32,000 bases of DNA from Ralstonia sp. UBA689 (GCF_002298975.1 NZ_DBMV01000024.1:133777-165776), one strand, 5' to 3'; positions 5,486 through 24,639 are shown, counted from the stretch's first letter. Notes: generated from the letters alone by a model not told the origin. A program made the numbers and translations.

Positions 5486-6706
5486 TCATCGTCTCCGATT
5501 GCCCCCAGCAGGTGCGGCGTGCGGTGCGGAAGAACCTCTGAACGCTGGCCCGCGCGGTTGCGGCGACGGGGCCGACATGCGGCTCGACTGCCCACGTTGC
5601 GCCTGGTTGCGCACGTCTGCACCGCGTCCGAACGACTCAAATGTGGGCGGGTAGCCGGGCGACTGCGCGCGTCGTGGAGGCGGGCGGACCGCAGGCGCCT
5701 GCCCCGGCGGACGTTGGGGCGGGCCTTGCGGTGCTCGGAATACCGGGCGCGCAGGTGCAACGGGGGAAGGCCGAATCACGGAGCCCGTCGGCGTGGCCGG
5801 TGACGTCGGATAACCGCGAAAGCCGCGCCGCACGTCCGGCGAGACAGCGGCGCCACCAAAGCGCCCCGCCTGCACCGGGCCGGGATACGGAACGCCATGA
5901 CGATGCCCTGGGTCATGTGCCCAGGTCCCGCTCGGGGGCGTACGGTGGTGGTCGATGTTGCCGAAGCGTCCCCGGTCAATATCGATGTGGTGGCCGCGCC
6001 AGTTGAAGTGGCTCCAGCCCCACAGCGGGATGACCGCCGAGAACCCGACCCAGCCAAAGCCGATGCCGCCGACAACCACGCCGCCCCAGATGTCGGGAAA
6101 GAAGTAGGGCGGGTAAGCCGGATACGGCCATGGCGCGTAGACGACATACGGATCGTAGACCGGAACGTAGACGAGGTCTGGGTTGGTTGGCTCGATGATG
6201 ATGGCACCGTCCTGCGTCGACACCATCGCCTCGGTTGTTGAAGCCAGTGTGCCGGCGGCTTGGGCACGGCTGCGCAGACGTTGTATCGAATCCATCACAG
6301 CGGCTTCGTCTGCGAGGAACGCGTTGCCGACGCGCTCCGTCCAGTCGAGGTTGTCGTCCATCATGTGCAGGAGCCCGGGAAACGGCACCAGCGATTTCAC
6401 GCTCGGATCCCATGGCAGCGGCGCGAGTGCATCGGCCAGTCCATTGCCGCTGAGCCCCGCGTGGCCTGGATCCTGCAACCAGCGATCAGCCTGGACCACT
6501 TCGAGCGGATACGTGGCAGCCATGAGGATCTGGGAAACAAGCGCATCCGGATACAGGGCGATGGGAGCCAGCATCTGGTCGAGCTGCTCAGCCGTCGCTT
6601 GCGGCGGATCGTTTTCAGGAAGGTCTTGCTGAGAGAACGCCGTGTTGAACATCAGCAACAAGAAAGCCAGGGCCACTGCCAGCGGCTTCATCGATCTCGC
6701 TTTCAT
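5486..6706 (-). CDS. DUF3300 domain protein (secreted, Pro-rich C-terminus)
   Basis: GGAGG lies 8 nt upstream of the ATG at 6706. MKPLAVALAFLLLMFNTAFS looks like a signal peptide. LDQMLAPIALYPDALVSQILMAATYPLEVVQADRWL is the DUF3300 signature. Confidence 0.8.
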   Translation of the reverse strand: MKARSMKPLAVALAFLLLMFNTAFSQQDLPENDPPQATAEQLDQMLAPIALYPDALVSQILMAATYPLEVVQADRWLQDPGHAGLSGNGLADALAPLPWDPSVKSLVPFPGLLHMMDDNLDWTERVGNAFLADEAAVMDSIQRLRSRAQAAGTLASTTEAMVSTQDGAIIIEPTNPDLVYVPVYDPYVVYAPWPYPAYPPYFFPDIWGGVVVGGIGFGWVGFSAVIPLWGWSHFNWRGHHIDIDRGRFGNIDHHRTPPSGTWAHDPGHRHGVPYPGPVQAGRFGGAAVSPDVRRGFRGYPTSPATPTGSVIRPSPVAPARPVFRAPQGPPQRPPGQAPAVRPPPRRAQSPGYPPTFESFGRGADVRNQAQRGQSSRMSAPSPQPRGPAFRGSSAPHAAPAGGNRRR

Positions 6707-13245: not shown

Positions 13246-13267
13246 TCGATATTCTGGAGTGCACGCC

Positions 13268-14842
13268 ATGCTCGTGCCGCCCGACATGACGGCAGTGCCC
13301 GATCGGCTCACATTCAAACCACTGGGCATCGACACCTGGCAGGAGCATGTCATCTACATGCATCCGGATTGCACGATCTGCCGCGCAGAAGGGTTTTCCG
13401 CACAAGCGCGGGTGGAAGTGCGCATCGGCCAGCGTGCCCTGATCGCCACCCTCAATCTCGTGGGTTCAGGCTTGCTCGACACGCATGAGATCAGCTTGTC
13501 CGCCAGCGCAGAAGAGTCGCTGATGGCGCGGCCCGGCGATATCGTGAGTGTCAACCATGCGCCGTCGCTGGAATCGCTGCGTGCCGTGCGCGCCAAAATC
13601 TACGGAGCGCACCTGGATACGCATCAACTGGCTAGCATCGTGAGCGACATTTCCGGCGAACGGTACGCTGATGTCCACATCGCGGCGTTCCTGAGTGCTT
13701 GCGCGGGCGGACGGATGAGCGTGAAGGAGACGACCGACCTCACGCAGGCCATGGTGGACTCCGGTGAGCGCCTGAAATGGGATCGGGCCGTCGTTGCCGA
13801 CAAGCACTGCGTGGGCGGACTGCCCGGCAACCGCACCAGCCCCATCGTCGTGGCCATCGCGGCTGCGGCCGGTCTGCTGCTGCCCAAGACATCGTCCCGC
13901 GCCATCACGTCACCCGCGGGCACGGCCGACACAATGGAAACGCTCACGCGCGTTGCGTTGAGCGCCAAGGAACTGCGGCACGTTGTCGATCGTGTCGGGG
14001 CTTCGCTGGCGTGGGGCGGTGCGTTGAGTCTCAGCCCGGCCGATGATGTTCTGATTCGCGTGGAACGGGCGCTGGATGTGGATAGCGACGCCCAACTGGT
14101 GGCCTCCATCCTCTCGAAGAAGATTGCTGCCGGGTCCACTCACGTCTTGATCGACGTGCCCGTTGGGCCTACAGCCAAGGTGCGTCGCCTGCAGGACTTG
14201 GAGCGCCTGCGCATGCTGCTTGAGCGCGTGGCGAAATCCTTTGGCATTCACGTCATGATCGTGCGCACCGATGGCTCTCAACCGGTGGGCCGTGGCATTG
14301 GCCCGGCGCTTGAAGCACGAGACGTCCTGGCTGTCCTGCAACGCTCGCCCACGGCACCGTTCGATTTGCGGGAGCGGTCGTTGTTGCTGGCTGGCGCGTT
14401 GCTGGAGTTTTGTGAGGCCGTGCCGCAAGGGGGTGGGCTCGATCTGGCCACCAGCGTGCTGGACAGCGGCGCTGCCTGGCGGAAGTTTCAGGAAATCTGC
14501 GAGGCGCAGGGGGGCTTGCGCGTACCTGGTGAAGCCATCTTCCGTCGCGATGTCGTGGCCGGGCAGGATGGCGTCGTCAGCGATATCGACAACCGGCATC
14601 TCGCCCGCATCGCAAAGCTGGCTGGAGCGCCGATGCGTCAAGTTGCCGGTGTGGAGATGCATGCGCGCCTGCATGACCGGGTCAGAGCAGGGCAACCGCT
14701 GTTCACGATCCATGCCCAGGCTTCGGGCGAGCTGGAGTACTCCTTTGCCTTTGCGCGGATGCATCCGGCCGTTTGCCTGGCCCCGATCGAGCGCATCGAC
14801 CCACTCGCGCCCCCGGCCTCAGTGGAGCAACCCGCACAGTGA
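13268..14842 (+). CDS. thymidine phosphorylase family protein (long, AMP-phosphorylase-like form)
   Basis: The glycosyltransferase family-3 core is present ([47 protein letters not shown]). There is an extra N-terminal region of about 90 aa before the helical domain. GGAG lies 9 nt upstream of the ATG at 13268; the track start is a GTG at 13259. Confidence 0.85.
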
Positions 14843-14870: not shown

Positions 14871-14898
14871 CTCTCGCATAATGTATCTTATGTTAAAT
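14871..14898 (+). other. dif: dif site (XerC/XerD recombination site), acting as attL of the prophage
   Basis: CTCTCGCATAA-TGTATC-TTATGTTAAAT compared with E. coli dif GGTGCGCATAA-TGTATA-TTATGTTAAAT gives XerC arm 7/11, central region 5/6 and XerD arm 11/11. It is intergenic, 28 bp after the stop at 14842. Confidence 0.85.
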
Positions 14899-14921
14899 CA
14901 CGCAGACGCCTGTGGGCGCGT

Positions 14922-15167
14922 CTACAACAGGCGCTGCGTGCAATCCAGGCACGCACGGAACCTACACCCGCGTGACCGGCAACACATCAGTAAGTCAAGC
15001 ACCTCCCTCTTTGAAACGCCTGCCTCGAGCAGGCGTTTTTTCTTCTTCTCGATCTTCCTGTAGTAACGCCTGCGCGGCGCGTCTTGAATACCTCGGCGCA
15101 GATACCGGATGTGCCAATACAGATTCCGAATCTCCCGCGCCAACAACCTCTTGTCATCGTCGGTCAC
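14922..15167 (-). CDS. questionable small basic ORF (81 aa)
   Basis: GTG start with no clear RBS. The ORF contains the strong hairpin at 15014-15044 (translated as KKKKRLLEAGV). The N-terminal two thirds look protein-like, while the Cys/Arg-rich tail looks like read-through. Confidence 0.25.
   Translation of the reverse strand: MTDDDKRLLAREIRNLYWHIRYLRRGIQDAPRRRYYRKIEKKKKRLLEAGVSKREVLDLLMCCRSRGCRFRACLDCTQRLL
15014..15044 (+). terminator. rho-independent terminator (phage-side; follows the circular-form repressor ORF)
   Basis: AAACGCCTGC-ctcga-GCAGGCGTTT followed by TTTTCTTCTTC gives a 10-bp perfect stem and a T-run. Confidence 0.7.
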
Positions 15168-15217
15168 TCAATCCCTGCGTGCTATCGTTGCGTCGATCTA
15201 ACAGCCTAGGCTACGAA

Positions 15218-15652
15218 ATGCGCACAATCGTACCGCTCATGCTGCTGCTCGCCATCCCCACAGCAGAAGCACAAAGCATCAATCGCTGCAAAATCGGTGG
15301 AAAGGTGGTCTACACAGACCAGGCCTGCGGAACATCGCTCCAGCGACAAATCGACCCAGCCGAACCGGCACCACAACAAGTGCCGCGTCGCATGTCAGAC
15401 GCAGAACACAACAACCTTGAGATGGCCCAAGAATGGGACAGGCGGATGGCGCAGAGAGATAGAGACCTAGCAACCGAACAGGCTTCGACCAGCGCGAAAC
15501 AAAACGCAGCCGCAGCCAACTGTGCAACGCTAAGGCAGGAAAAAGAGGCAGTCCTATCGAACCTGCGACATGGCGGAACAGCTCAATGGATGAACTACTG
15601 GAACGAACGCTTTCACACGGTATCAGACGCGCTGTACCGCAACCGCTGCTGA
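15218..15652 (+). CDS. DUF4124-like secreted protein (prophage cargo)
   Basis: MRTIVPLMLLLAIPTAEAQS looks like a signal peptide, followed by CKIGGKVVYTDQAC, which is a DUF4124-type motif. The remainder is charged and coiled. The RBS is weak. Orientation is opposite to the phage structural genes. Confidence 0.6.
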   Translation: MRTIVPLMLLLAIPTAEAQSINRCKIGGKVVYTDQACGTSLQRQIDPAEPAPQQVPRRMSDAEHNNLEMAQEWDRRMAQRDRDLATEQASTSAKQNAAAANCATLRQEKEAVLSNLRHGGTAQWMNYWNERFHTVSDALYRNRC

Positions 15653-15835
15653 AAAGCGGGCTTGCAAGAGAGGGGGTGTTTGCCTGTGGCGCAGGATGGA
15701 CAACTTGGTGGTCATACCCGCTGCTCGGTCCCGCGGGGCGCCCTCCGGGCGTCAACCGTCCTGCACCTGGTCAACTCTCCATGTCCCCAAAGGGGCCCCC
15801 TTGCGGCTCCGATCAGAGCGCGGACACTCCCTACG

Positions 15836-16036
15836 CTAGTCGTCGCACGCCTTCACAACAAATGCGCACACGTTAGCAATGACTAAACCACCGACAAAAA
15901 CCCACCAGTTCTCAATTCGAAGATTCGTGCCATAAAACACAGCCCAAACAAGCGCCGCTTGACCAACCAAAATCGCAACCACAGCAAGCAAATATTTCAC
16001 AGCACCCTCACTAGTCACAAAAGCGCGGACACTCAC
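15836..16036 (-). CDS. small two-TM membrane protein downstream of zot
   Basis: GTG start 21 nt after the zot stop. There are two clear hydrophobic spans (YLLAVVAILVGQAALVWAVFYG and WWVFVGGLVIANVCAFVV). The composition is unlike the Arg/Pro-rich spurious ORFs of this window. Confidence 0.45.
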   Translation of the reverse strand: MSVRAFVTSEGAVKYLLAVVAILVGQAALVWAVFYGTNLRIENWWVFVGGLVIANVCAFVVKACDD

Positions 16037-16057
16037 ACTTTTCTCAGTAACGAAAAT

Positions 16058-17209
16058 TCAGCCTTCAGGAAAGGCCTCCAGCTCATCAACGCGCCGTGCC
16101 CTGCCCGAACCTATGACCGTCCGTTTGCGAGGCTCCTGGGCGCGTTCCCGCTGCGGCGAGGCCTCCACGACCAGCTTCAGCTCCTGCGGTTGCGCTACTG
16201 CAGTAGAAACAGGCGCCGGAGACGGCTGCACAGCGGCCTGCACCTTCTGAGCCCGACCATCAGCCTCGAAGGCCTCGAAGAAACCGCGCTTGACCAGGTC
16301 AGCACAGATCTGCGGCGTTGTCTCCAGATGCGTACCCTGCTGGGTCCAGCACTCGCAACCGCCACGAATCTGCACACACGCGGCCGGCACCGGCACCCGC
16401 GACGGCTTCGTGAGCTCATCATAGGCCGGGGCCGTGTACTGCAGACCAGGAACACGCGGCGTATAGCTCGCCACGTATTCCGACGCCGTCATCGGCGCAG
16501 CCTTTTGAGGCTGGCCGACCATCGCACCCGGTGCGCCAGGCAGACCAGGCACGGCACCAGGCGAAGCAGTTGCAAGCTTCACCTGGTCAGGATGCGAGAT
16601 CTTCCAAAGCTTCCAGCCGCCAAACACCGCCGCAGCCAGGGCCACCACCGGCAGCGCGTACATCATGTAGTACTTGAGCGGGATCGCCTTCTTGTGCGTG
16701 TGAGCATCGGCGGACTTGTACCACTCGAAGACCTGCTTGGGATACGGGAAGCTGCTGTGCAACGCACGCTTGAGATTCGCGTTCGTTGGGTCCTGCACCT
16801 TCTGCATCTTGAACAGATCCGCCTTCTGCCGACCCCACTGGCGGATCAGGTGGATATGCTCACCGGCGAGCTTCTTCAAGTGGTTGTCGACCAGGCTCGG
16901 GTCCTGCGTCATGAAGAACAGGTCGAAGCCTTTGTGACGATGCGTCTCCAGCTCGGACACATGCTGCGGCGGCTTCGAGCTCGAAGGCCTCGGCGGCATG
17001 ACCTTCTGCACCTCGTCGATCACGATGATCGACTTCTCCGGGCACTCATGCCACTTCGTCGCATCCTCCAGCATGGTCCACGGCAGCGTGAGCTCCGGAA
17101 TACCGAAATAGAAAACAGGCCGGTTCTCAGCCTTCCGCTTCGCCTCCACAAACGCGATCGTGTAGAGGCTCTTACCATTACCAGGTTGACCTGTGATGAG
17201 CGTCAGCAT
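16058..17209 (-). CDS. zot: Zot-family assembly ATPase (inovirus pI)
   Basis: MLTLITGQPGNGKSLYTI carries a Walker A motif, IIVIDEVQ is a Walker B-like motif, and there is a central TM (YALPVVALAAAVFGGWKLW). The start is taken at the ATG at 17209, 7 nt after the pVI-like stop. Confidence 0.85.
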   Translation of the reverse strand: MLTLITGQPGNGKSLYTIAFVEAKRKAENRPVFYFGIPELTLPWTMLEDATKWHECPEKSIIVIDEVQKVMPPRPSSSKPPQHVSELETHRHKGFDLFFMTQDPSLVDNHLKKLAGEHIHLIRQWGRQKADLFKMQKVQDPTNANLKRALHSSFPYPKQVFEWYKSADAHTHKKAIPLKYYMMYALPVVALAAAVFGGWKLWKISHPDQVKLATASPGAVPGLPGAPGAMVGQPQKAAPMTASEYVASYTPRVPGLQYTAPAYDELTKPSRVPVPAACVQIRGGCECWTQQGTHLETTPQICADLVKRGFFEAFEADGRAQKVQAAVQPSPAPVSTAVAQPQELKLVVEASPQRERAQEPRKRTVIGSGRARRVDELEAFPEG

Positions 17210-17216
17210 GTCGGCC

Positions 17217-17537
17217 TCACTTCTGAACCATCTTGCGAATCGAGCCACCGCTCAAACCGGACAACGATGCGCGAATGCCCAACGTCGTGAGAATCATGTT
17301 CATCGAGGTGCCCACCTTCAGCACGCCGAGGATGCCCACCACACTCACAGACGAGATCGAGCCAACACCGTTCACGTACTGCATGAAGAGCGTCTTCATG
17401 CCACTCATCATTGCATCGACCCCCGTGAACATCACGAAGCCGATACCGAGCGCAACCAGGACACGCCCGACCAACGACACGCAGGCCTGCGCCAACAAAC
17501 CAACAATGGCCGAAGCCAACAGAGCAGCGAAAGGCAT
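17217..17537 (-). CDS. pVI-like minor coat/membrane protein (DUF2523-like)
   Basis: MPFAALLASAIVGLLAQACVSLVGRVLVALGIGFVMFTGV is strongly hydrophobic. The ATG overlaps the pIII-like stop (TGATG at 17535-17539). The position between g3 and zot is typical. Confidence 0.65.
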   Translation of the reverse strand: MPFAALLASAIVGLLAQACVSLVGRVLVALGIGFVMFTGVDAMMSGMKTLFMQYVNGVGSISSVSVVGILGVLKVGTSMNMILTTLGIRASLSGLSGGSIRKMVQK

Positions 17538-18949
17538 CAGAAACTCCCCTTGAGCATGTAGGCGCAGAGCATCATCGTGCCCAGCATGTTGAGATAACCG
17601 AGCAGCTTGCCGATGTCGCACAACGGCGTCGTGTCCATGTGCAAACTCCAAACACGATCAGGCAACTGCAACGGAACATCGATGTTCCCGAGACACTGAG
17701 CAGCGATACCCATGTCATCAACGTTAGAAAACTTGGAGCTCATGTCCACCTTGTCGGCACCATCGGGCGTGGGCAACTTACCGGCCAACGGATCCTGACC
17801 GCTCCCGAGCTTCGCGCCGAGATCCGTCGAATCATCGTGCTTCTGCAACTCACAACGGGTGTTCCACTGCTGAGCCAGAATCGCGCAACTAATCGCATCA
17901 CCATCACAGGTCGGCGGCGCACTGCAATCGACACCACCACTCGCGGAATCCTTCTTGCATTGAGCTGCTGTCGGATTCTGCTTGCAATAGTCTTCCTGCG
18001 GCTGCGAAGTCGTCGTCGTGCAAGTCCCGGCACCACCATTAACCGTGCCACCTGTGCTGACCTGCGTCGCCTGACAAGGCCCCGCAGCCGTACCACTCGC
18101 AGCACCACCCGAACCACTCCCACCTGTACCGCTGCCAGTCGTCGTTGTCGTCGTCGTGCAAGTCGCGCCATCACACGTTGTGCTCGTGCTCGTGCTGCTG
18201 GAATTCGACGCGGGAACACCGCTGGCAGGCGTATCCGTTGTCGTTGAGTTCGTCGTGCCGCCAGTTGTCTGCGTCGGATACGGAACGCAGACGTTCTGCC
18301 CATTCACCGTGCCGGAATACGTTTTGTCCGGACACGAACTCGTCGGCTTCGTATCCACAGCATTAGGCATCCCCGACCCGCTACAAGACGCGTAATTCGA
18401 AGTCAGCCCGTACCACTCTGCAGAGTAGCCGCCAGACTGCCCTGCCTGCGCACCAGTCCAATAACTGCTGTACCCATACGAACAGCTATTGACGCAAACA
18501 GCCGAGTTAGTCACCGTCTGCGTCGCACTCGTGCCATACGCAGTATTCCCACCCGGAGCGGACTGACCAGCCGCAGGACAATTTGGAGCAGGCGTCGCAC
18601 ACACATACTTCCCAGTCGAATCCGTCTGCAACACCTGCGGTGTCGTGCACGTCAACGGTGGAACAGACTCACTCTTACCAACAACCAAATAGCCGCTGTT
18701 GTACCCCTGCCTATCCCAACACGTTCCACTCGGAGGCGCAAACGTCGCTGACACAGAAGCACACGCATCCGCACCCGTATCGTAATAACCAAGCAACGCA
18801 TTCGTGCTTTGCTTACGCAGCTCAAAATAACCCGCCCAAACGCTAGAACCCCACATCAGGCCAAAGGCAAGCACTAACACCTGTAGCGCACGAGCCCGGC
18901 GGAGCGGAATCCAGATGCGTACAGGAAGCAAGAAAAATGACCAGGGCAT
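17537..18949 (-). CDS. pIII-like adsorption / minor coat protein
   Basis: 470 aa with an N-terminal signal/TM, a Cys-rich N-terminal half and Thr/Ser/Gly linkers (TTCDGATCTTTTTTTGSGTGGSGSGGAASGTAAG). The C-terminal hydrophobic anchor is LLGYLNMLGTMMLCAYML. The position between the coat gene and the pVI-like gene is typical. Confidence 0.7.
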   Translation of the reverse strand: MPWSFFLLPVRIWIPLRRARALQVLVLAFGLMWGSSVWAGYFELRKQSTNALLGYYDTGADACASVSATFAPPSGTCWDRQGYNSGYLVVGKSESVPPLTCTTPQVLQTDSTGKYVCATPAPNCPAAGQSAPGGNTAYGTSATQTVTNSAVCVNSCSYGYSSYWTGAQAGQSGGYSAEWYGLTSNYASCSGSGMPNAVDTKPTSSCPDKTYSGTVNGQNVCVPYPTQTTGGTTNSTTTDTPASGVPASNSSSTSTSTTCDGATCTTTTTTTGSGTGGSGSGGAASGTAAGPCQATQVSTGGTVNGGAGTCTTTTSQPQEDYCKQNPTAAQCKKDSASGGVDCSAPPTCDGDAISCAILAQQWNTRCELQKHDDSTDLGAKLGSGQDPLAGKLPTPDGADKVDMSSKFSNVDDMGIAAQCLGNIDVPLQLPDRVWSLHMDTTPLCDIGKLLGYLNMLGTMMLCAYMLKGSF

Positions 18950-18961
18950 AGCTCACCACCC

Positions 18962-19021
18962 TCACGAAAAAAGAATCCATCCAGCACCCGCTATCGCAAT
19001 GAGAACGAAGTAGCCTTCCAT
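18962..19021 (-). CDS. tiny hydrophobic ORF (19 aa, MEGYFVLIAIAGAGWILFS), possible minor virion/assembly peptide
   Basis: This ORF is not in the track and was read by hand. GGAG lies 8 nt upstream of the ATG at 19021. The stop TGA at 18962-18964 lies 12 nt before the g3 ATG. Confidence 0.3.
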   Translation of the reverse strand: MEGYFVLIAIAGAGWILFS

Positions 19022-19031
19022 GACGAGCTCC

Positions 19032-19057
19032 AATAAAAACGGGGACCGAAGTCCCCG
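19032..19057 (-). terminator. rho-independent terminator/attenuator after the major coat gene
   Basis: The minus strand reads CGGGGAC-TTCG-GTCCCCG followed by TTTTTATTG. It is preceded by a second hairpin, GGCACG-N5-CGTGCC, at 19068-19084. Confidence 0.75.
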
Positions 19058-19092
19058 CGTCTTGCCAGGCACGGGGAGCGTGCCCCGCAGCA

Positions 19093-19299
19093 TCACTTGA
19101 TCGGCTTGCGAACCCAGTTGTAGATCGCCACGACAGCAGCGAGCCCCAGGATGGCCACTCCGATCAGACCGATCGCAGCGACACCCGTACCCAGCGTGGT
19201 CACCACTGCCGACACATCCACGCCATCGGCAGCCATCGCCGAACCAGCGACACCGACAGTACCAACGGCAAAACCCACTTTCTTGAAAATCGACTTCAT
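19093..19299 (-). CDS. major coat protein (pVIII-like)
   Basis: The 68-aa product MKSIFKKVGFAVGTVGVAGSAMA|ADGVDVSAVVTTLGTGVAAIGLIGVAILGLAAVVAIYNWVRKPIK has a signal peptide, an acidic N-terminus, a TM and a basic C-terminus. AGGAG lies upstream of the ATG at 19299. Confidence 0.8.
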   Translation of the reverse strand: MKSIFKKVGFAVGTVGVAGSAMAADGVDVSAVVTTLGTGVAAIGLIGVAILGLAAVVAIYNWVRKPIK

Positions 19300-19303
19300 C
19301 GCC

Positions 19304-19537
19304 CTACTCCTCTTCACGTTGATAAATGGCCCGCGCTGCGGACCGAAAGACGAAAGCGAGAGCCCATAGACCGAGCATCGCGCTCCCAATTAGGGCACCG
19401 TCACTCACCGAGAGCGGCGGCACCGCATGCAACAGCGTGACCTCATCAGCAGTCAGCAGCAGATACCCCGTGCACGACGAAGCTGAAGTGCTATCGAACT
19501 GCAGCTGCCCACTGACGATTTGCACGCACTGAGCCAT
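19304..19537 (-). CDS. small membrane protein (phage morphogenesis/minor coat candidate)
   Basis: The ATG at 19537 overlaps the upstream stop (TGATG). The C-terminal TM is GALIGSAMLGLWALAFVF. It lies immediately upstream of the coat gene. Confidence 0.5.
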   Translation of the reverse strand: MAQCVQIVSGQLQFDSTSASSCTGYLLLTADEVTLLHAVPPLSVSDGALIGSAMLGLWALAFVFRSAARAIYQREEE

Positions 19538-19845
19538 CACCAAGCCCCAGCCAAACCACCGAGCTGATGCAAGTCCTCACGCAAGAACTCGTCAGCAAGG
19601 TCAAGCTTCGAACCATCCAACTCGCAATACGCCTCCTCACGCATCCGCAAGTCATCCAGGAAATCACTACGCGCCCAACGGCAGTGCTGACGCCACACGG
19701 AAACACGACGAGCAGCTGCATCGGCCCGAGCCTCAATCCACGCAACAGCGCTCGCACCGGCAAAGAACGCGACGAACAAGCTCACGCTCATCAACAGAAA
19801 GCCAACGGCCGCGTGAAGCGGATCAAAACCGCCAAAGGGACCCAT
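19537..19845 (-). CDS. phage membrane protein (102 aa)
   Basis: A strong RBS (TAGGAGGAGGTG) precedes the ATG at 19845. The N-terminal TM is AAVGFLLMSVSLFVAFFAGASAVAWI. Confidence 0.55.
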   Translation of the reverse strand: MGPFGGFDPLHAAVGFLLMSVSLFVAFFAGASAVAWIEARADAAARRVSVWRQHCRWARSDFLDDLRMREEAYCELDGSKLDLADEFLREDLHQLGGLAGAW

Positions 19846-19854
19846 CACCTCCTC

Positions 19855-20055
19855 CTAGTGATCAAGCTTGACAATGGCAACCACATCGAACGCCTCATCG
19901 CAGTGATCCACCGCCGTAACCACCGCGTCTTCACGCGAATCGAACGTACCCGCCTCACGCAGCCGATGCGTGAACCCAACGTCGCCCCCGCACGGACACA
20001 GGAACAGACCCGAGTTCACCTCCTGCACGACGAAGCCGACGCCCGCCACGATCAA
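19855..20055 (-). CDS. small phage protein (66 aa)
   Basis: The TTG start overlaps the ssDNA-binding gene stop (TTGA). It fills the gap in the operon. No family is recognised. Confidence 0.4.
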   Translation of the reverse strand: MIVAGVGFVVQEVNSGLFLCPCGGDVGFTHRLREAGTFDSREDAVVTAVDHCDEAFDVVAIVKLDH

Positions 20056-20351
20056 GCCGCCTTGGCAGCGGCAATCGGCACCAGCGAATGCACGATGGTC
20101 TTCATCGTCTTGCCGTTGGTCGTGATTTCCATGTCAGCCTTGGCCTTAAAAGGCAGATCGACCTTGCTGTACTTCTCGAACTCGTCGGACTTGCCGATGG
20201 TGTACTCCGCCGTTGCAGCACCACGAGCAGTGCCCTTGGAATCATCGAACGGCGTCAGCACGTAGGCCTTGCACGAGTCGAAGGCCACACCATCCATGTC
20301 ACCCTTGGATGCCTTGAGGCCGTACACAACCACTTCGCTAGTGAATCGCAT
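20052..20351 (-). CDS. putative ssDNA-binding protein (pV-like)
   Basis: 100 aa, beta-rich (MRFTSEVVVYGLKASKGDMDGVAFDSCKAYVLTPF...). The RBS GGAAGGAAAC lies upstream of the ATG at 20351. The start overlaps the rep 3' end by 14 nt. The call rests on position and size only. Confidence 0.5.
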   Translation of the reverse strand: MRFTSEVVVYGLKASKGDMDGVAFDSCKAYVLTPFDDSKGTARGAATAEYTIGKSDEFEKYSKVDLPFKAKADMEITTNGKTMKTIVHSLVPIAAAKAA

Positions 20352-21594
20352 GATTTGTTTCCTTCCAGGCTGGTGATATGACCGGTTCCCCCGTCCAGCC
20401 ATCGTCGGAGGGGTCAAGATCGTTGAAACGCGGCGTACGAGCACGCTCATGCATGGGTCGCTCGCAAAGCTCGTGATCGGGCACCCTCAGGCGCTCCGGC
20501 CAAGCCTCGGATTTGGACGTGACACGCTTGACAAAGGCCTCAGGCCCCATCAAGCCAACAAGCACGCGCACGTACTTGCCATAGCTCGCACAGATGTTGT
20601 CCAGCGATGCTTCAACGTTGATTTGCGCGGTCTTGCGCTTGATTTCCATGCGCTCCGGCTGACGGCCCGGATCGATGAAACGAAGACAGGGATACGAGGC
20701 AACGAAGAAGGCAGACGGATCGAGCAGCACATCAAACGGAATGACGCGCTTGACATTGCGATACTCAACCTCAATGCGCACCCACTCTGATGACGCATCG
20801 CCCTGCTCTTTGCCCTTCTCGTAAATGCGGCACAACTTGCCGTTACGACGCAAGCCGATATAGAGCGAACGCCCTTTGCCATTAGGCTTCTTCCAATTGC
20901 CCTTGTACTCGTGATGCGGCTCATTGACCGATGCCGTGAAGAGCCCATCATCAAACCACTGATCGGCCTGATCGACGGTGACTTCACCGTCAAAACAATC
21001 GTGCGCAAGATCGACCCGCGTAATGCTCGGACGCCGGGCCTTAGTCTTAAGGAAATCGAACAGCCGCTGTTCCCACCCTTCACGCGCAGCCAGACAACCG
21101 GCACCGCTGATACTCACCATGATGGTCGAACGTTGGTTCTGACCACCAATCGCCACGTGACCATAATTGTCGCCAAGCTCCCAGGCATTCAGGTAGAAAT
21201 CCCGCGACCGCTCCAAGTCCCGCGTGACACCGTAGCCAAGAATCTCGGTGAGCTTTTCCGACAGGGCCATGACGTACGCCACGTCATCAACCCCAACCGC
21301 CTCACTGCGGAAGGTCTCCTCACCGATGGTGAAGCGCAGCGTGTCGATCATCGCCACCTGACCGGATACCGGGACACGCACCATCACCGTCTTAACTTCG
21401 CCCGTGTCGGTCATCACCACATCAACCAACTCGGTTGCCGCCAGAATCGGCCGAGGCGCTCCTGCATCCGTTCCCCCCGTGTTACTAGAGGGGGGGCTAG
21501 CGCTCGCGCGCCCGCTGTCCGTCGCTGCCGCTCCGTCCATCAGCGCACGTGCGCCGCGTGTCCCTACCGTCAACGTCGCCTTCAACCTGCCCAT
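20338..21594 (-). CDS. rolling-circle replication initiation protein (pII / RstA-like, Rep_trans type)
   Basis: ITRVDLAHDCFDGEVTVDQ and LYIGLRRNGKLCRIYEKGKEQGD are typical of the replication-initiation-factor family used by CTX/RSS-type phages. The N-terminal 60 aa are low complexity, so the true start could be a downstream Met (for example 21414). Confidence 0.8.
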   Translation of the reverse strand: MGRLKATLTVGTRGARALMDGAAATDSGRASASPPSSNTGGTDAGAPRPILAATELVDVVMTDTGEVKTVMVRVPVSGQVAMIDTLRFTIGEETFRSEAVGVDDVAYVMALSEKLTEILGYGVTRDLERSRDFYLNAWELGDNYGHVAIGGQNQRSTIMVSISGAGCLAAREGWEQRLFDFLKTKARRPSITRVDLAHDCFDGEVTVDQADQWFDDGLFTASVNEPHHEYKGNWKKPNGKGRSLYIGLRRNGKLCRIYEKGKEQGDASSEWVRIEVEYRNVKRVIPFDVLLDPSAFFVASYPCLRFIDPGRQPERMEIKRKTAQINVEASLDNICASYGKYVRVLVGLMGPEAFVKRVTSKSEAWPERLRVPDHELCERPMHERARTPRFNDLDPSDDGWTGEPVISPAWKETNHAIH

Positions 21595-21612
21595 CGGATC
21601 GTTTACCCCTGC

Positions 21613-21694
21613 CCGGTTAACCGGTTATATTTCGGTTAAATCCACGTTCCGTGAATCCACGGACCGTAGATTAATCCACGAACCGTGGATTCAC
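21613..21694. promoter_or_regulatory. operator/iteron array between rep and repressor
   Basis: A 12-bp palindrome CCGGTTAACCGG lies at 21613-21624, and CGGTTA occurs 3 times. The unit AATCCACG-NNC-CGTR occurs 3 times in direct orientation (21639, 21654, 21673). A perfect 12-bp inverted repeat GTGAATCCACGG/CCGTGGATTCAC lies at 21651-21662 and 21683-21694. Confidence 0.7.
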
Positions 21695-21696
21695 AA
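21668..21696 (-). promoter_or_regulatory. candidate sigma70 promoter for rep (TTGTGA-N17-TAATCT)
   Basis: On the minus strand the -35 TTGTGA lies at 21696-21691 and the -10 TAATCT at 21673-21668. The 17-nt spacer contains the CCACG-AAC-CGTGG operator palindrome. Confidence 0.35.
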
Positions 21697-21709
21697 GGGG
21701 GTGTCGACC

Positions 21710-22150
21710 ATGAAAAGCGTGAAATACCTGGATGCCGTGATCGAGCGACACGGCCTGAAGACCGACAAAGCACTGTGCGAGCACATGGGCTGGTCGCACA
21801 GCGCAGTCAACAACTACCGGAAAGGCTTACGAATCATGGACAACGAGCAGTGCCTGCGCGTTGCCATCGAGCTGGGAATGGAGAACCCGCTACCAATCAT
21901 CATGGCAGCAGACGCGGACCGCGCAGAACGAGCTGGACAGCGGTCGCTGTGGGAAGTTTTTTCACCGAGGATGGCGCATAGCGGCCTGGTCGCCCTCCTC
22001 ATTTCGCTCGGCCTTGGTGTCACAAATTTTGTGACACCAACTCCCGCCAAAGCCGCGCCGTTAAGCCATTTTCAGGCCCCGAACACTGTATCTTATGTTA
22101 AATACAAAGGAACAACGGATCGAGTTTTCTTCGTGCTGGCCCACAACTGA
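21710..22150 (+). CDS. phage repressor-like protein; the prophage form has a host-encoded C-terminal tail
   Basis: AAGGGGG lies upstream of the ATG at 21710. The N-terminal part (KALCEHMGWSHSAVNNYRKGLRIMDNEQCLRVA) resembles an HTH. The gene is divergent from rep across the operator array. The ORF runs through the attR core (codons NTVSYVK); the last 15 codons lie outside the phage. Confidence 0.7.
   Translation: MKSVKYLDAVIERHGLKTDKALCEHMGWSHSAVNNYRKGLRIMDNEQCLRVAIELGMENPLPIIMAADADRAERAGQRSLWEVFSPRMAHSGLVALLISLGLGVTNFVTPTPAKAAPLSHFQAPNTVSYVKYKGTTDRVFFVLAHN
22076..22103 (+). other. attR: dif-like hybrid site with a degenerate XerC arm
   Basis: GCCCCGAACAC-TGTATC-TTATGTTAAAT has a central region and XerD arm identical to 14882-14898. 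The XerC arm matches attL at only 5/11. Confidence 0.8.
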
Positions 22151-22341
22151 CTAGCGTTCCTTCTCGTCTGAGATAGACCCAGTTCCCGTCAAGCTGCACG
22201 CCTTGCACGCCTGTCATCGCAGTTCACCTATCCGGCGCAGCTTCCCCAAACGCGATGGCGACGGCACTACTTGGCATCCCTGTCAGCGCCCTCCCTTGAA
22301 AGCGGCGGGCTGTGCAGATACATATTTCAGTCTTTTCTGTC

Positions 22342-22370
22342 TTGACTGAAATAACTGAAGAACCTATGCT
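22342..22370 (+). promoter_or_regulatory. sigma70 promoter TTGACT-N17-TATGCT of the GbsR-type regulator (predicts a leaderless mRNA)
   Basis: The -35 lies at 22342-22347 and the -10 at 22365-22370. The ATG at 22377 begins 7 nt after the -10, and there is no SD sequence. Confidence 0.55.
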
Positions 22371-22376
22371 CCTGAC

Positions 22377-22907
22377 ATGAAACTCACACCTATCTCCGAA
22401 CGCTTCATCCTCCATTGGGGCGAAATGGGTTCTCGCTGGGGCGTCAATCGCACCGTAGCCCAAATCCACGCGCTGCTATTCCTGGCCGGCCGTCCGTTGT
22501 CCGCGGAGGATATCGCCGAGACGCTCAGCGTCGCGCGCTCGAACGTGAGCACCAGCCTCAAGGAACTGCAATCGTGGCGCCTGACTCGAGTGGTCCATGT
22601 CATGGGGGACCGGCGAGACCATTTTGAAACCTCCACGGATGTCTGGGAGTTATTCAAGCTGATCGTAGAAGGCCGACGACAGCGTGAAATTGATCCGACG
22701 CTGACCGTGCTGCGCGACTGCCTCGTCAGTCCTGAACTGCAGCAAGAGCCCAAAGAGAGCGCCCAACGCATCCAAGAAACACTGGCCTTCATGGAAACAC
22801 TCACTACGTGGACTGAAGAGATGCTGCGGCTCAAGCCCGAGACGTTGATGAAGACACTAGGTATGGGCGCAAAGATCAGCCGGACAGTGCGTCGCACAAA
22901 GGCGTAG
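22377..22907 (+). CDS. GbsR/MarR-family transcriptional regulator
   Basis: MKLTPISERFILHWGEMGSRWGVNRTVAQIHALLFLAGRPLSAEDIAETLSVARSNVSTSLKELQSWRL is the characteristic GbsR-type winged-helix N-terminus. Confidence 0.8.
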   Translation: MKLTPISERFILHWGEMGSRWGVNRTVAQIHALLFLAGRPLSAEDIAETLSVARSNVSTSLKELQSWRLTRVVHVMGDRRDHFETSTDVWELFKLIVEGRRQREIDPTLTVLRDCLVSPELQQEPKESAQRIQETLAFMETLTTWTEEMLRLKPETLMKTLGMGAKISRTVRRTKA

Positions 22908-22923
22908 GGATCGCGCCATGAAA

Positions 22924-22947
22924 GCGGGCATCGTGCCCGCATTTTTT
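22924..22947 (+). terminator. rho-independent terminator
   Basis: GCGGGCA-tcg-TGCCCGC followed by ATTTTTT, 17 nt after the regulator stop. Confidence 0.75.
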
Positions 22948-23002
22948 GGCGTTTGAATTTCTTTTTTTACAGAAATAACTGCAACAAAAGAAGGAGGAAA
23001 TC

Positions 23003-23383
23003 ATGATGTCCTTAGTACTGTCTGCGGTGCAAATCGCCGTTCCGATCCTCTTGGGCCTGATCGTGGCCTCTTACCTGCGTGGCGTGACGTTACGCCTGCT
23101 CGTCGACCTGTGTGGAACAGAAGATCGCGCCCAATTCTGGATGCGGGCCGCCGCCGTGGTCTTTGTTTCGGCACCGCTGATGTTCGTGCTTGTTGGCGCG
23201 CGCAATCCGCTGGAATGTACCGTGCTGAACGCAGCCTGCGCTTTGCAGGTGTTGCGCCAAACAGTGATGTGGAGCCTCGCAGGCGTGCTGCTGGCAGTCG
23301 CAGCCGTAACGCGAGGTGTCGGTCGTCGAATTCCGCGCCAGGCAGCAGCCATGCCCGCGCAAGCCGCGGAGAGCACGTCATGA
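23003..23383 (+). CDS. small integral membrane protein, hypothetical
   Basis: AAGGAGG lies 7 nt upstream of the ATG at 23003. Three or four hydrophobic spans are present. The stop overlaps the next start (ATGA). Confidence 0.65.
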   Translation: MMSLVLSAVQIAVPILLGLIVASYLRGVTLRLLVDLCGTEDRAQFWMRAAAVVFVSAPLMFVLVGARNPLECTVLNAACALQVLRQTVMWSLAGVLLAVAAVTRGVGRRIPRQAAAMPAQAAESTS

Positions 23384-24639
23384 GAATTCTGGTCTGCGGT
23401 GCAAACGGGTTCATCGGCGCAGCACTTTGCGAGCGGCTGGTGCGGGATTGGCATCTGGTCCTGCGTGGGGTGCGACAACCACGCGGGCCGATGGACGTGG
23501 CCATCGACTACACGACAGACCTGACGCCCGGACAATGGCTGCCGCGATTGCGTGACGTCGATGTCGTGATCAATGCCGTCGGCATCATCGTAGAGCGCGG
23601 GGCGCAGACTTTCGAGAAGTTGCACTATCAGGCACCAGCCGCGCTGTTTCGTGCTTGCCAGGAAGCTGGTGTGCAGCATGTCGTACAAATCTCAGCGCTT
23701 GGCGCGGACTCCGGTGACACCGCCTACTTCCAAAGCAAATATCGTGCGGACTTGGCATTACTGGCGCAGCCGATGCGTGTTCACGTCGTGCGGCCTGCTC
23801 TGGTGTATGGCCCGGCGGGTACGTCGGCACGTATGTTCCGGGCGTTGGCCAGCATTCCGATGCATGGCTTGCCGTCAGGTGGTCAGCAACGCCTGCGCCC
23901 CGTACATATCGACGATCTCGTGGATATGGTGGCGGGCCTGTTGTCCCCCGGGATGGAGTTGCCCGGTCCGTGCATCAACGCCGTCGGTGCGACAGAAACC
24001 ACGTACCGCGAGATGTTGAGCCACTATCGTGCTGCGATGCAGCTGCCGCCCGCATTGGCCATCAGCATCCCAAGCGCCTTGATGCGGATGGCTGTGGCAG
24101 TCGGGGATCGAATTCCCGGCTCTCCATTGACACGCGACACGTGGCGCATGCTGCAGGACGGTAGCACCGGCTCAGACACGTCCACCCGCAGTAGATTGAG
24201 GCGTCACCCGCTTGGCGTGGAAGCGTTCATTTCAAAGGAGGAAGCGAGCGCGCTCCGCCACGAAGCACTGTCCACGTGGCAACTCCCGCTGCTACGTCTC
24301 GCCCTGGCGATTGTGTGGATCTGCACCGCATGGGTAAGTGTCTTTGGGTATCCACGTGCTGATAGCCTTGCGCTGCTGAGCCGCCTGGGCTTGCATGGGT
24401 TGACTGCAGACGCGGCACTCATCGGCGCCAGCGCCCTCGACCTGATGTTCGGTATGGCGACACTCCTCTGGCCCAGTCGACGCTTATGGCTTGCGCAACT
24501 GGTGCTGGTGCTGACCTACAGCCTCCTCATCTGCGTGGCATTGCCGGAGTTTCTCATTCACCCGTTTGGACCGGTGCTCAAGAACATCCCCTTTCTCGCC
24601 GTCCTGATTACGCTGTTCAGCAGCGAGGTGAAATCATGA
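23380..24639 (+). CDS. NAD(P)-binding SDR/epimerase-family domain fused to a C-terminal DoxX-like membrane domain
   Basis: MRILVCGANGFIGAALCERL carries a GxxGxxG Rossmann motif. The C-terminal ~130 aa have four hydrophobic spans (LRLALAIVWICTAWVSVF... FLAVLITLF). The ATGA overlap at 23380-23383 suggests translational coupling. Confidence 0.75.
   Translation: MRILVCGANGFIGAALCERLVRDWHLVLRGVRQPRGPMDVAIDYTTDLTPGQWLPRLRDVDVVINAVGIIVERGAQTFEKLHYQAPAALFRACQEAGVQHVVQISALGADSGDTAYFQSKYRADLALLAQPMRVHVVRPALVYGPAGTSARMFRALASIPMHGLPSGGQQRLRPVHIDDLVDMVAGLLSPGMELPGPCINAVGATETTYREMLSHYRAAMQLPPALAISIPSALMRMAVAVGDRIPGSPLTRDTWRMLQDGSTGSDTSTRSRLRRHPLGVEAFISKEEASALRHEALSTWQLPLLRLALAIVWICTAWVSVFGYPRADSLALLSRLGLHGLTADAALIGASALDLMFGMATLLWPSRRLWLAQLVLVLTYSLLICVALPEFLIHPFGPVLKNIPFLAVLITLFSSEVKS

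What the first reader, a model, noticed from the sequence alone, without database searches (positions are those of the whole stretch)
21710..22150. Integration swaps the C-terminus and terminator of the phage repressor gene
The repressor ORF reads through the attR core (…APNTVSYVK). In the prophage it continues into host DNA as YKGTTDRVFFVLAHN*, giving 146 aa, with no obvious terminator nearby. Joining 22102 to 14899, as in the circular phage, makes the same frame continue SRRRLWARLQQALRAIQARTEPTPA*. This gives a 156-aa protein with its stop at 14973-14975, followed 38 nt later by the strong terminator at 15014-15044. The phage thus makes two repressor isoforms depending on physical state. They share 131 aa and differ in a 25-aa basic amphipathic tail versus a 15-aa hydrophobic tail. 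This could couple immunity or lysogeny control to integration. I recall that a dif-integrating Ralstonia RSS-type phage has a regulator ORF spanning attP, so the principle may not be entirely new.
Basis: seen in the sequence. Interest (0 to 1): 0.65.

Follow-up and report, generated by a model that had tools for sequence, protein, structure and literature searches.

The report
Phage repressor gene split by integration
A small filamentous prophage sits at the chromosome's dimer-resolution site (dif), and its attachment site lies inside its own repressor gene, so integration replaces the last 25 codons and the terminator with host DNA; this is real and family-wide, but it was already described for the related Ralstonia phage RSS0.

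Summary
ORF 21710-22150 (+) encodes 146 aa. An identical 17-bp core lies at 14882-14898 and at 22087-22103. Joining 22103 to 14899 gives 156 aa, with the stop at 14973-14975 and a hairpin plus U-run at 15013-15045.

The element is a 7,205-nt inovirus inserted at the host dif site. A circular 7.3-kb metagenome contig carries the predicted junction contiguously at 88% identity.

The split is family-wide. Ten of twelve reconstructed prophages from six Burkholderiales genera give 152-167 aa plus a terminator. Among 119 homologue clusters, all 19 with the phage-type tail come from contigs of 8.9 kb or less. None of the 53 clusters seen on contigs of 20 kb or more has it.

The principle is published. 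Yamada (2013) described attP inside RSS0 ORF13, 156 aa shrinking to 130 aa. Mycobacteriophage BPs shows integration-dependent immunity experimentally.

One finding is new here. The tail overlaps, antisense, a conserved Cys-rich small ORF (14922-15167, minus strand) that also contains the terminator hairpin. That ORF dominates selection in the overlap. Only the first ~9 tail residues (RRRLWARL) show their own coding constraint.

Whether the two isoforms differ in function is untested. Verdict: new member of a known kind.

The parts
14871..14898 (+). attL, a complete host-type dif site: XerC arm 14871-14881, central region 14882-14887, XerD arm 14888-14898.
   Evidence: It matches E. coli dif at 23 of 28 positions. 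It is the only full match in the window. The 17-bp core is identical to attR.
14899..14975 (+). [quoted passage not shown] It is joined to the gene body only in the circular form.
   Evidence: Reconstruction. The contiguous homologue in circular contig L129 is 88% identical over 692 nt. Homologous tails occur in RSS0-type phages.
15013..15045 (+). Intrinsic-terminator hairpin plus U-run for the episomal repressor transcript. On the other strand it encodes KKRLLEAGV of the small ORF.
   Evidence: The hairpin is conserved in all reconstructed relatives, with one compensatory pair in the Glaciimonas phage.
14922..15167 (-). Conserved 81-aa small ORF (phrog_27692) with a C-terminal Cys motif, CCx3-4Cx4-10CxxC. 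It is convergent with the repressor tail and overlaps it by 51 nt.
   Evidence: phrog_27692 match at E = 1.8e-38. The Cys motif is conserved across genera. This frame shows a synonymous excess in the overlap. Forty-three homologues were found, all unnamed.
15218..15652 (+). DUF4124-like secreted-protein gene carried by the phage on the repressor strand.
   Evidence: for the ORF. Pfam DUF4124 at E = 4e-4, just under the curated cut-off. phrog_7936 at E = 3e-21.
16058..17248 (-). Zot/pI-like assembly ATPase, a marker of the inovirus.
   Evidence: Pfam Zot, E = 1.2e-16.
20338..21594 (-). Rolling-circle replication initiator (Rep_trans), divergent from the repressor gene.
   Evidence: Pfam PF02486, E = 2.6e-24.
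21639..21694 (.). Three overlapping palindromic repeats (AATCCACGnnCCGTGGATT-like) between the rep and repressor genes; candidate operators.
   Evidence: A promoter-like site lies at 21602-21631.
21710..22150 (+). Prophage form of the Cro/CI-type regulator gene (146 aa). Residues 1-131 are phage-encoded.
   Evidence: phrog_638 at E = 4e-38. 64% identity to RSS0 ORF13 over aa 1-120. The AF2 HTH domain has pLDDT around 90. XRE/Cro-CI matches.
22076..22103 (+). attR: degenerate phage XerC-side arm, central region and XerD arm. It lies inside the ORF and encodes PNTVSYVK.
22104..22150 (+). Host DNA read as the accidental 15-aa tail YKGTTDRVFFVLAHN*.
   Evidence: Tails of other lysogens are unrelated to it.
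22377..22907 (+). Host MarR-family gene, co-oriented with the repressor gene, with no intervening intrinsic terminator.
   Evidence: Pfam MarR_2. No terminator was found.

Best explanation
Shown. The window holds a 7,205-nt filamentous prophage (14899-22103) inserted at the host dif site. Its attachment site is a dif mimic with a perfect XerD arm, a matching central region and a degenerate XerC-side arm. The site lies inside the 3' part of the phage's Cro/CI-type regulator gene, a homologue of RSS0 ORF13. On the circular genome the gene encodes 156 aa and ends at a hairpin terminator. After recombination with dif, the last 25 codons and the terminator are left at the far (attL) end, and the gene reads into host DNA, giving 146 aa here. 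The arrangement is conserved across this phage family in at least six Burkholderiales genera.

Inferred. The retained 131 aa comprise the HTH domain and a hydrophobic segment, and act as the lysogen's immunity repressor at the palindromes at 21639-21694. Integration removes a short basic motif (RRxLWxRL). It also removes the terminator and the convergent overlap with a small Cys-rich gene. This would change repressor stability, activity or level, and would tie immunity to integration as in mycobacteriophage BPs. Which isoform is the more active one is unknown.
For: Anatomy.

Identity of the element:
- Inovirus genes are present: Rep_trans, Zot, Coat_B and DUF2523.
- The structural module is 84% identical to Ralstonia phage p12J.

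The circular form exists:
- Circular contig L129 (127-nt terminal overlap) carries the contiguous 156-aa gene. The window's reconstructed junction aligns to it at 88% over 692 nt.
- Six RSS-type phage genomes all encode 156 aa with a homologous tail.

The split is family-wide:
- Ten of twelve prophages with both junctions reconstruct to 152-167 aa, with a hairpin and T-run about 25-40 nt after the stop. Their prophage forms are 129-157 aa with unrelated tails.
- All 19 tail-bearing clusters come from contigs of 8.9 kb or less. None of the 53 clusters on contigs of 20 kb or more has the tail.

Selection keeps the ORF open across attP:
- The XerD arm is read in all three frames in different phages (YVK, MLN, LCK).
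- The spacer length (34, 33 or 32 nt) compensates for the frame.
- Phages that read the LC frame carry TTATGTAAAAT instead of TTATGTTAAAT, which removes an in-frame TAA.
- The window and L010 both encode SRRRLWARL but differ by five synonymous changes.

Precedent: RSS0 ORF13, 156 to 130 aa (PMC3816273), and BPs gp33, 136 to 103 aa (PMC4557955).
Against: - In the 17-codon overlap, differences are mostly synonymous for the antisense ORF (194 synonymous, 74 non-synonymous) and mostly non-synonymous for the repressor tail (72 synonymous, 196 non-synonymous). Most of the tail is therefore not constrained as repressor sequence.
- All three plus-strand frames are open for 25-57 codons here, so an open tail alone proves little.
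- Frameshifted or hybrid variants persist in several contigs: P0003 and P0012 (180 aa), and L117.
- Transposon insertions inside the RSCq tail codons gave viable phage (PMC11323561). This says nothing about immunity.
- The C-terminus (…TPA) is not an obvious ssrA-like LAA tag.
- There are no expression or binding data for either isoform.
Confidence: 0.6

Rival explanations
1. Neutral by-product of genome compaction. The dif mimic happens to sit in the dispensable 3' end of the regulator gene. The tail looks conserved only because it is the mirror image of the Cys-rich antisense gene. Both isoforms are equivalent repressors. Frame-keeping only serves to place a stop codon before the terminator hairpin, so that ribosomes do not run into it.
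For: - The minus frame dominates selection in the overlap.
- The last 8 tail residues vary freely: 17 synonymous versus 138 non-synonymous differences.
- Host-derived tails are arbitrary, with prophage forms of 125-236 aa.
- Frameshift variants persist.
- Insertions in the RSCq tail are tolerated.
- In the two other frames the ORF would read through the hairpin.
Against: - The non-overlapped spacer codons keep RRxLWxRL through synonymous change.
- The attP XerD arm deviates from dif specifically to avoid a stop in LC-frame phages.
- Ten of twelve reconstructions are in frame, against one third expected by chance. This is a rough comparison, because the lineages are not independent.
- RSCq kept both coding versions by duplicating 98 nt rather than losing one.
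Confidence: 0.3
2. The regulator is a membrane-anchored or processed protein. The conserved hydrophobic segment (aa 90-108), followed by a Pro-x-Ala-x-Ala motif, acts as a signal-anchor. The part after it, including the dif-encoded residues and the tail, would then be extracytoplasmic. Integration would change an exported peptide rather than a cytoplasmic regulatory tail.
For: - The best 17-aa hydropathy window averages 2.03 at aa 92-108.
- The most hydrophobic window sits at the same position (median 92) in 119 homologues.
- A small-x-small motif follows it in 104 of 114 homologues.
- Met88 is nearly invariant.
- AF2 predicts an isolated helix at 92-104, then a disordered linker.
Against: - No topology predictor or experiment was available.
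- The tail is Arg-rich, which is unusual for a periplasmic segment.
- AF2 confidence is low beyond residue 85.
- A DNA-binding repressor tethered to the membrane would be unusual for phage immunity.
Confidence: 0.07
3. The prophage is a decaying remnant and the ORF is not expressed, so the isoforms have no biological relevance in this strain.
For: There are no expression data. Lysogens of RSS-type phages are reported to release phage rarely (PMC3816273).
Against: All core inovirus genes are intact ORFs. The identical 146-aa gene occurs in contigs assembled from two independent sequencing runs. A promoter-like site and operator repeats are intact.
Confidence: 0.03

Closest known systems
Ralstonia phage RSS0 ORF13 with internal dif-type attP (Yamada 2013, Front Microbiol 4:325; PMC3816273)
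   Same: - The regulator is homologous: 64% identity over aa 1-120, a 156-aa circular form, and a homologous tail...RRLRERLQQALRAVQ.
- attP is a dif mimic in the 3' end of the ORF.
- Integration at host dif truncates or alters the C-terminus.
- The same hypothesis, that free and prophage forms differ in function, has been published.
   Different: - The phage backbone differs. The structural genes are p12J-like, and no megablast-level (about 85% or more) DNA similarity to RSS phages was found outside a 185-nt stretch.
- dif is read in another frame (YVK rather than LC*).
- Here the prophage form gains 15 host-encoded residues (146 aa) instead of stopping inside dif (130 aa).
- The host is not R. 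solanacearum, judging by its dif central region and flanking genes.
Integration-dependent immunity of mycobacteriophages BPs, Brujita and Charlie (Broussard et al. 2013 Mol Cell; Villanueva et al. 2015, PMC4557955)
   Same: attP lies inside the repressor ORF. The viral form is longer (136 aa) than the prophage form (103 aa). The repressor gene is divergent from the early lytic gene, with operators between them.
   Different: - Those phages are tailed and encode their own tyrosine integrase next to the repressor. Here there is no integrase and the host XerCD/dif system is used.
- The viral BPs form is shown to be degraded through an ssrA-like tag. Here no degron is shown and the C-terminus is …TPA.
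- Homology to gp33 was not tested.
dif-integrating filamentous phages that exploit XerCD (CTXphi, VGJphi, TLCphi of Vibrio; XacF1 of Xanthomonas)
   Same: This is also an inovirus without an integrase, inserted at dif, with a functional dif restored on one side (PMC4471427).
   Different: In those systems, as far as I recall (from memory, not checked here), attP is intergenic or in folded single-stranded DNA and does not split a regulator gene. Here the XerC-side arm is degenerate (5 of 11 positions match the host arm) and the XerD arm is perfect. That does not match my recollection of TLCphi, where the XerD arm is the defective one.

Membership tests
RSS0 ORF13-type regulator with internal dif attP | Sequence homology to ORF13 / phrog_638 | tested here: met
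   tblastn gives 64% identity over aa 1-120, E = 1e-41. phrog_638 matches at E = 3.8e-38.
RSS0 ORF13-type regulator with internal dif attP | A dif-like attP lies within the 3' end of the ORF | tested here: met
   The XerD arm and central region at 22087-22103 lie inside the ORF, at codons 126-132.
RSS0 ORF13-type regulator with internal dif attP | Full-length form of about 156 aa on the circular genome, shorter or altered form in the prophage | tested here: met
   The reconstruction gives 156 aa against 146 aa. The contiguous form is seen in circular contig L129. The replicative form of this very phage was not observed.
RSS0 ORF13-type regulator with internal dif attP | Acts as repressor or immunity factor | not testable with these tools
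   There is only indirect support: an HTH fold, operator-like palindromes, and the reported immunity of RSS0 lysogens.
Integration-dependent immunity (mycobacteriophage BPs type) | attP inside the repressor ORF, so that integration shortens the product | tested here: met
   In this host the product changes from 156 to 146 aa. In many hosts it is 128-131 aa.
Integration-dependent immunity (mycobacteriophage BPs type) | Phage-encoded integrase co-transcribed with the repressor | tested here: not met
   No integrase was found among the phage ORFs. Pfam hits are Rep_trans, Zot, Coat_B, DUF2523 and DUF4124 only, and the remaining ORFs are under 135 aa. The flanking dif sites point to host XerCD.
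Integration-dependent immunity (mycobacteriophage BPs type) | The viral form carries a C-terminal degradation tag, and the prophage form is the stable, active repressor | not testable with these tools
   The C-terminus …EPTPA is not an obvious LAA-type tag. The last 8 residues vary freely in the family.
XerCD/dif-integrating inovirus | Prophage bounded by dif-like sites, with one intact dif regenerated | tested here: met
   attL at 14871-14898 is a full dif. attR at 22076-22103 shares the 17-bp core.
XerCD/dif-integrating inovirus | Empty attB in related strains, or an observed attP junction for this phage | tested here: inconclusive
   An exact search for the empty site found nothing in the GTDB representative genomes. 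The host flanks have no close relatives there, at 63-85% aa identity at best. The junction is supported only through relative L129.
Cro/CI (XRE) helix-turn-helix regulators | N-terminal five-helix HTH domain | tested here: met
   AF2 pLDDT is 87-92 for aa 1-70 and 68 for aa 71-80. Foldseek gives probability 0.99-1.0 to C.AhdI, P22 c2 and ImmR. A PDB profile hit to a lambda-repressor-like protein has E = 5e-4. Pfam Phage_CI_repr is only sub-threshold for this sequence, but PF01381 and PF07022 are recorded on homologues.

The most novel reading that the evidence does not exclude
dif-integrating inoviruses of Burkholderiales run a recombinase-free version of integration-dependent immunity. On the episome, the regulator carries a basic tail, and its transcript ends inside a convergent Cys-rich gene to which it is antisense. 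XerCD integration does three things at once. It removes the tail, changing stability, localisation or activity. It removes the terminator, allowing read-through into host genes such as the MarR gene here. It also uncouples the two convergent genes. One host-catalysed DNA exchange would therefore flip a three-part switch. The hydrophobic, signal-anchor-like segment may make the tail an exported or membrane-proximal part of the protein.
Probability: 0.2. Interest if true: 0.6.

Novelty: new member of a known kind. Interest (0 to 1): 0.38.

Why it matters
If the two forms differ in function, a phage with no integrase could sense its own integration through a host recombinase. That would explain why RSS-type lysogens are immune and silent while episomal infections alter host virulence.

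The family-wide data make this testable:
- The ORF is kept open across dif in all three reading frames.
- The XerD arm is edited to remove a stop codon.
- The tail and terminator region codes on both strands.
- RSCq has naturally separated the two genes by duplication.

As it stands, the window adds another example and a wider comparative frame to an idea already in the literature. It does not add a new principle.

Tried and rejected
- **Empty attB.** An exact search of the GTDB representative genomes for CGCATAATGTATCTTATGTTAAATACAAAGG found nothing.
- **Host identification through flanking proteins.** The MarR-like protein reached at most 85% identity, in a Burkholderia sp.. The thymidine-phosphorylase-like protein reached at most 63%. 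Exact-protein look-ups only returned the same lysogen contigs from runs SRR5320852 and DRR012575. Ralstonia or a close relative is likely from the phage's relatives, but this was not shown.
- **Pfam and NCBIfam on the regulator and the small ORF.** Neither gave a hit above threshold.
- **Treating the tail's amino-acid conservation as proof of function.** I rejected this after finding the antisense ORF and running the codon-position test. My first run of that test wrongly included two sequences from another subfamily. I repeated it without them.
- **Open reading frame as evidence of selection.** I rejected this because all three plus-strand frames are open here.
- **phiRs551 orf14 as a precedent.** I rejected this because it is an RSM-type phage with a serine recombinase and an intergenic attP.
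- **Structure of the tail.** AF2 confidence was too low beyond residue 85 to say anything about tail packing.

Full report
**1.

The ORF from ATG 21710 to TGA 22148-22150 encodes 146 aa. TTATGTTAAAT occurs exactly twice in the window, at 14888-14898 and 22093-22103. None of 100 shuffles reached two copies. The identity extends to 17 bp, TGTATCTTATGTTAAAT, at 14882-14898 and 22087-22103.

The left copy belongs to a complete 28-bp dif at 14871-14898. It matches E. coli dif at 23 of 28 positions and is the only full match in the window. The right copy has an unrelated XerC-side arm.

Joining 22103 to 14899 keeps the frame and gives 156 aa. The stop is at 14973-14975, and 131 aa are shared between the two forms.

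An 11-bp hairpin at 15013-15039 followed by U6 begins 37 nt after that stop. Its free energy is -18.1 kcal/mol, with z = -2.4. Downstream of the prophage stop there is no hairpin with a T-run before the next co-oriented gene at 22377.

**2. What the element is**

The interval 14899-22103 (7,205 nt) is an inovirus.
- It carries Rep_trans (20338-21594, minus strand) and Zot (16058-17248, minus strand).
- It carries a DUF2523 pVI-like protein and a Coat_B major coat protein.
- Its structural module is about 84% identical to Ralstonia phage p12J.

It encodes no integrase. It is bounded by dif-type sites, with an intact dif regenerated at attL. This fits integration by the host XerCD system.

The regulator has a confident N-terminal Cro/CI-type HTH domain.
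- AF2 pLDDT is 87-92 for aa 1-70 and 68 for aa 71-80.
- Foldseek gives probability 0.99-1.0 to C.AhdI, P22 c2 and ImmR.
- A PDB profile hit has E = 5e-4.
- phrog_638, annotated 'transcriptional regulator', matches at E = 4e-38.

Three palindromic repeats (AATCCACG..CGTGGATT) lie at 21639-21694, between the regulator gene and the divergent rep gene. This is the classical layout of an immunity region.

**3. The predicted circular junction exists in nature**

A JGI metagenome contig, L129, is 7,346 nt with a 127-nt terminal overlap, so it is circular. It carries a contiguous 156-aa gene that is 90% identical to the reconstruction. The window's joined sequence (gene body, core, tail and terminator) aligns to it without a break at 88% over 692 nt.

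The sequenced RSS-type phages RSS0, RSS30, RSCq, RSS-TH1, RS611 and RSBg all encode 156 aa. Their tail is homologous...LCK IARRLRERLQQALRAVQTSPKTAPC.

**4. The split is family-wide**

I found both junctions in twelve prophages from Ralstonia, Cupriavidus, Herbaspirillum, Glaciimonas, Collimonas, Paraburkholderia and Undibacterium.
- Ten reconstruct to 152-167 aa, with a hairpin and T-run about 25-40 nt after the stop.
- Their integrated forms are 129-157 aa with unrelated tails.
- The two exceptions are L096, which has a stop inside the XerD arm, and L103, which reads through.

Among the 119 best homologue clusters, 19 carry the phage-type tail. All 19 come from contigs of 8,869 nt or less. 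None of the 53 clusters seen on contigs of 20 kb or more has the tail.

**5. Is the tail selected?**

There are three arguments for selection.

(a) The invariant XerD arm is read in all three frames in different phages (YVK, MLN, LC-K/Q). The spacer between the arm and the downstream conserved block is correspondingly 34, 32 or 33 nt, so the tail frame is restored each time.

(b) Phages that read the arm in the LC frame carry TTATGTAAAAT instead of the host's TTATGTTAAAT. This removes an in-frame TAA. After integration the host arm restores the stop, which is exactly the published 156-to-130-aa change of RSS0.

(c) In the eight codons directly after the arm, the repressor frame has the highest share of synonymous differences: 154 synonymous and 187 non-synonymous, against at most 104 and 227 in any other frame. 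The window and the R. mannitolilytica prophage both encode SRRRLWARL but differ by five synonymous changes.

**6. An unexpected complication**

The rest of the tail overlaps, antisense, the 3' end of a conserved 81-aa ORF on the phage's main coding strand. This ORF runs from 15167 to 14922 and matches phrog_27692 at E = 1.8e-38.

That ORF ends in a Cys motif kept across genera despite codon-sized indels:
- window: CCRSRGCRFRACLDC
- Herbaspirillum: CCRSGCRGKKCLKC
- Glaciimonas: CCRSKCGAKKNPVKPCFYC
- Undibacterium: CCRLKCGRLKPCPYC

The frames are codon-aligned: plus-strand position 1 is minus-strand position 3. In ten distinct Ralstonia-group sequences, the 17-codon overlap shows 194 synonymous and 74 non-synonymous differences in the minus frame. 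In the repressor frame it shows 72 synonymous and 196 non-synonymous. The conserved alanines of ...QQALRAIQA are therefore largely the mirror of the conserved cysteines. The last eight tail residues drift freely, with 17 synonymous against 138 non-synonymous differences.

The 'terminator' hairpin itself lies inside this ORF and encodes KKRLLEAGV. It is maintained by a compensatory pair in the Glaciimonas phage (GCCTCC/GGAGGC). The sequence therefore appears constrained both as structure and as coding sequence.

RSCq has resolved the overlap with a 98-nt tandem duplication, which gives each gene its own copy. Published transposon insertions at RSCq positions 553-554 and 561-562 were described as non-coding. 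They actually fall in the last codons of the unannotated regulator ORF, and the resulting phage was viable.

**7. Mechanism**

Shown: XerCD-type insertion at dif separates the regulator's last 25 codons and its terminator from the gene body.

Inferred: the retained HTH-bearing 131 aa provide immunity in the lysogen. Losing the basic RRxLWxRL motif, the terminator, and the convergent antisense overlap would change the repressor's amount or activity. This parallels integration-dependent immunity in mycobacteriophage BPs. There the 136-aa viral repressor is degraded through a C-terminal tag, and the 103-aa prophage form is the stable, active one.

It is not known which direction applies here. The C-terminus is not an obvious ssrA-like tag.

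The main rival, at about 0.3, is that the arrangement is a tolerated by-product of compaction, and that frame-keeping merely places a stop before the hairpin.

**8. Novelty**

Yamada (2013) reported that attP (dif) lies within RSS0 ORF13, and that integration shortens it from 156 to 130 aa. He proposed that free and prophage forms differ in function, citing unpublished work. I found no later paper testing this.

The window is therefore a new member of a known kind. It has a different backbone (p12J-like), a different reading frame through dif, and a host-encoded 15-aa extension instead of a clean truncation.

The parts I did not find in the papers I read are:
- the breadth of the family;
- the three-frame compensation;
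- the edited XerD arm;
- the dual-coding tail and terminator;
- the convergent Cys-rich gene.

**9. Limits**

- No replicative-form reads, expression data or binding data were available.
- The host could not be named, and no empty attB was found.
- The lineages used for the frame-matching count are not independent.
- AF2 confidence is low beyond residue 85.

Noticed in passing
window 14922-15167 (-): A conserved 81-aa small ORF (phrog_27692; 43 unnamed homologues). It has a basic helix and a C-terminal CCx3-4Cx4-10CxxC motif, is convergent with the repressor tail and overlaps it. The terminator hairpin at 15013-15039 lies inside it and encodes KKRLLEAGV. Its function is unknown.
   Followed up: partly
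window 21977-22054 (+), repressor aa 90-115: A conserved hydrophobic segment (GLVALLISLGLGVTNFV, mean hydropathy 2.03) is followed by TPTPAKA|AP. Together they resemble the h- and c-regions of a signal peptide or a signal-anchor, but placed after an 85-aa HTH domain. Arg87 is invariant and Met88 nearly so in the alignment of 17 full-length homologues. The hydrophobic segment is present at the same position across the homologue set.
   Followed up: partly
window 15218-15652 (+): The phage carries a DUF4124-like gene with an N-terminal signal peptide (phrog_7936). It is on the repressor strand, downstream of the terminator, and may be a lysogenic-conversion cargo gene.
   Followed up: partly
window 22076-22086 versus 14871-14881; loci L009-L012, L094-L102: The attP XerC-side arm is degenerate: 5 of 11 positions match the host arm here, and it is unrelated between phages. 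The XerD arm is perfect, and the central region usually copies the local host dif. This does not fit my recollection of the CTX, VGJ or TLC attP classes.
   Followed up: partly
L001, L003, L005, L006, L008 (RSS-type phages); L108, L109: Phages that read dif in the LC frame have TTATGTAAAAT in attP instead of the host's TTATGTTAAAT. This removes an in-frame TAA. The host arm restores the stop after integration.
   Followed up: yes
L004 (RSCq) 522-717: A 98-nt tandem duplication gives the regulator tail and the Cys-rich ORF separate copies. The regulator ORF (116-586) is not annotated in the record. The published transposon insertion sites at 553-554 and 561-562 fall inside it.
   Followed up: yes
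proteins P0003, P0012 (180 aa); locus L117: These variants join a YVK-frame gene body to an MLN-class left end (or an LC-frame body to a host-type arm). The result is a frameshifted tail or a stop. This could come from Xer-mediated exchange between different phages at dif, or from tandem arrays.
   Followed up: no
window 15653-15837: A 185-nt stretch is 85% identical to RSS1/RSS0 positions 6211-6398, close to the region the RSS papers call the intergenic region. It is the only nucleotide-level similarity to RSS phages outside the regulator module, and may be an origin or packaging signal.
   Followed up: no
window 22323-22370 and 22377-22907 (+): A host MarR-family gene has its own promoter-like site (22342-22370) and a 10-bp inverted repeat (22323-22353). 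It lies directly downstream of the unterminated prophage repressor gene, in the same orientation, so read-through is possible.
   Followed up: no
window 13259-14842 and 22377-24639: The host genes flanking dif have no close relatives among the GTDB representative genomes (63% and 85% aa identity at best). This suggests a variable terminus region or an unsampled host species.
   Followed up: partly
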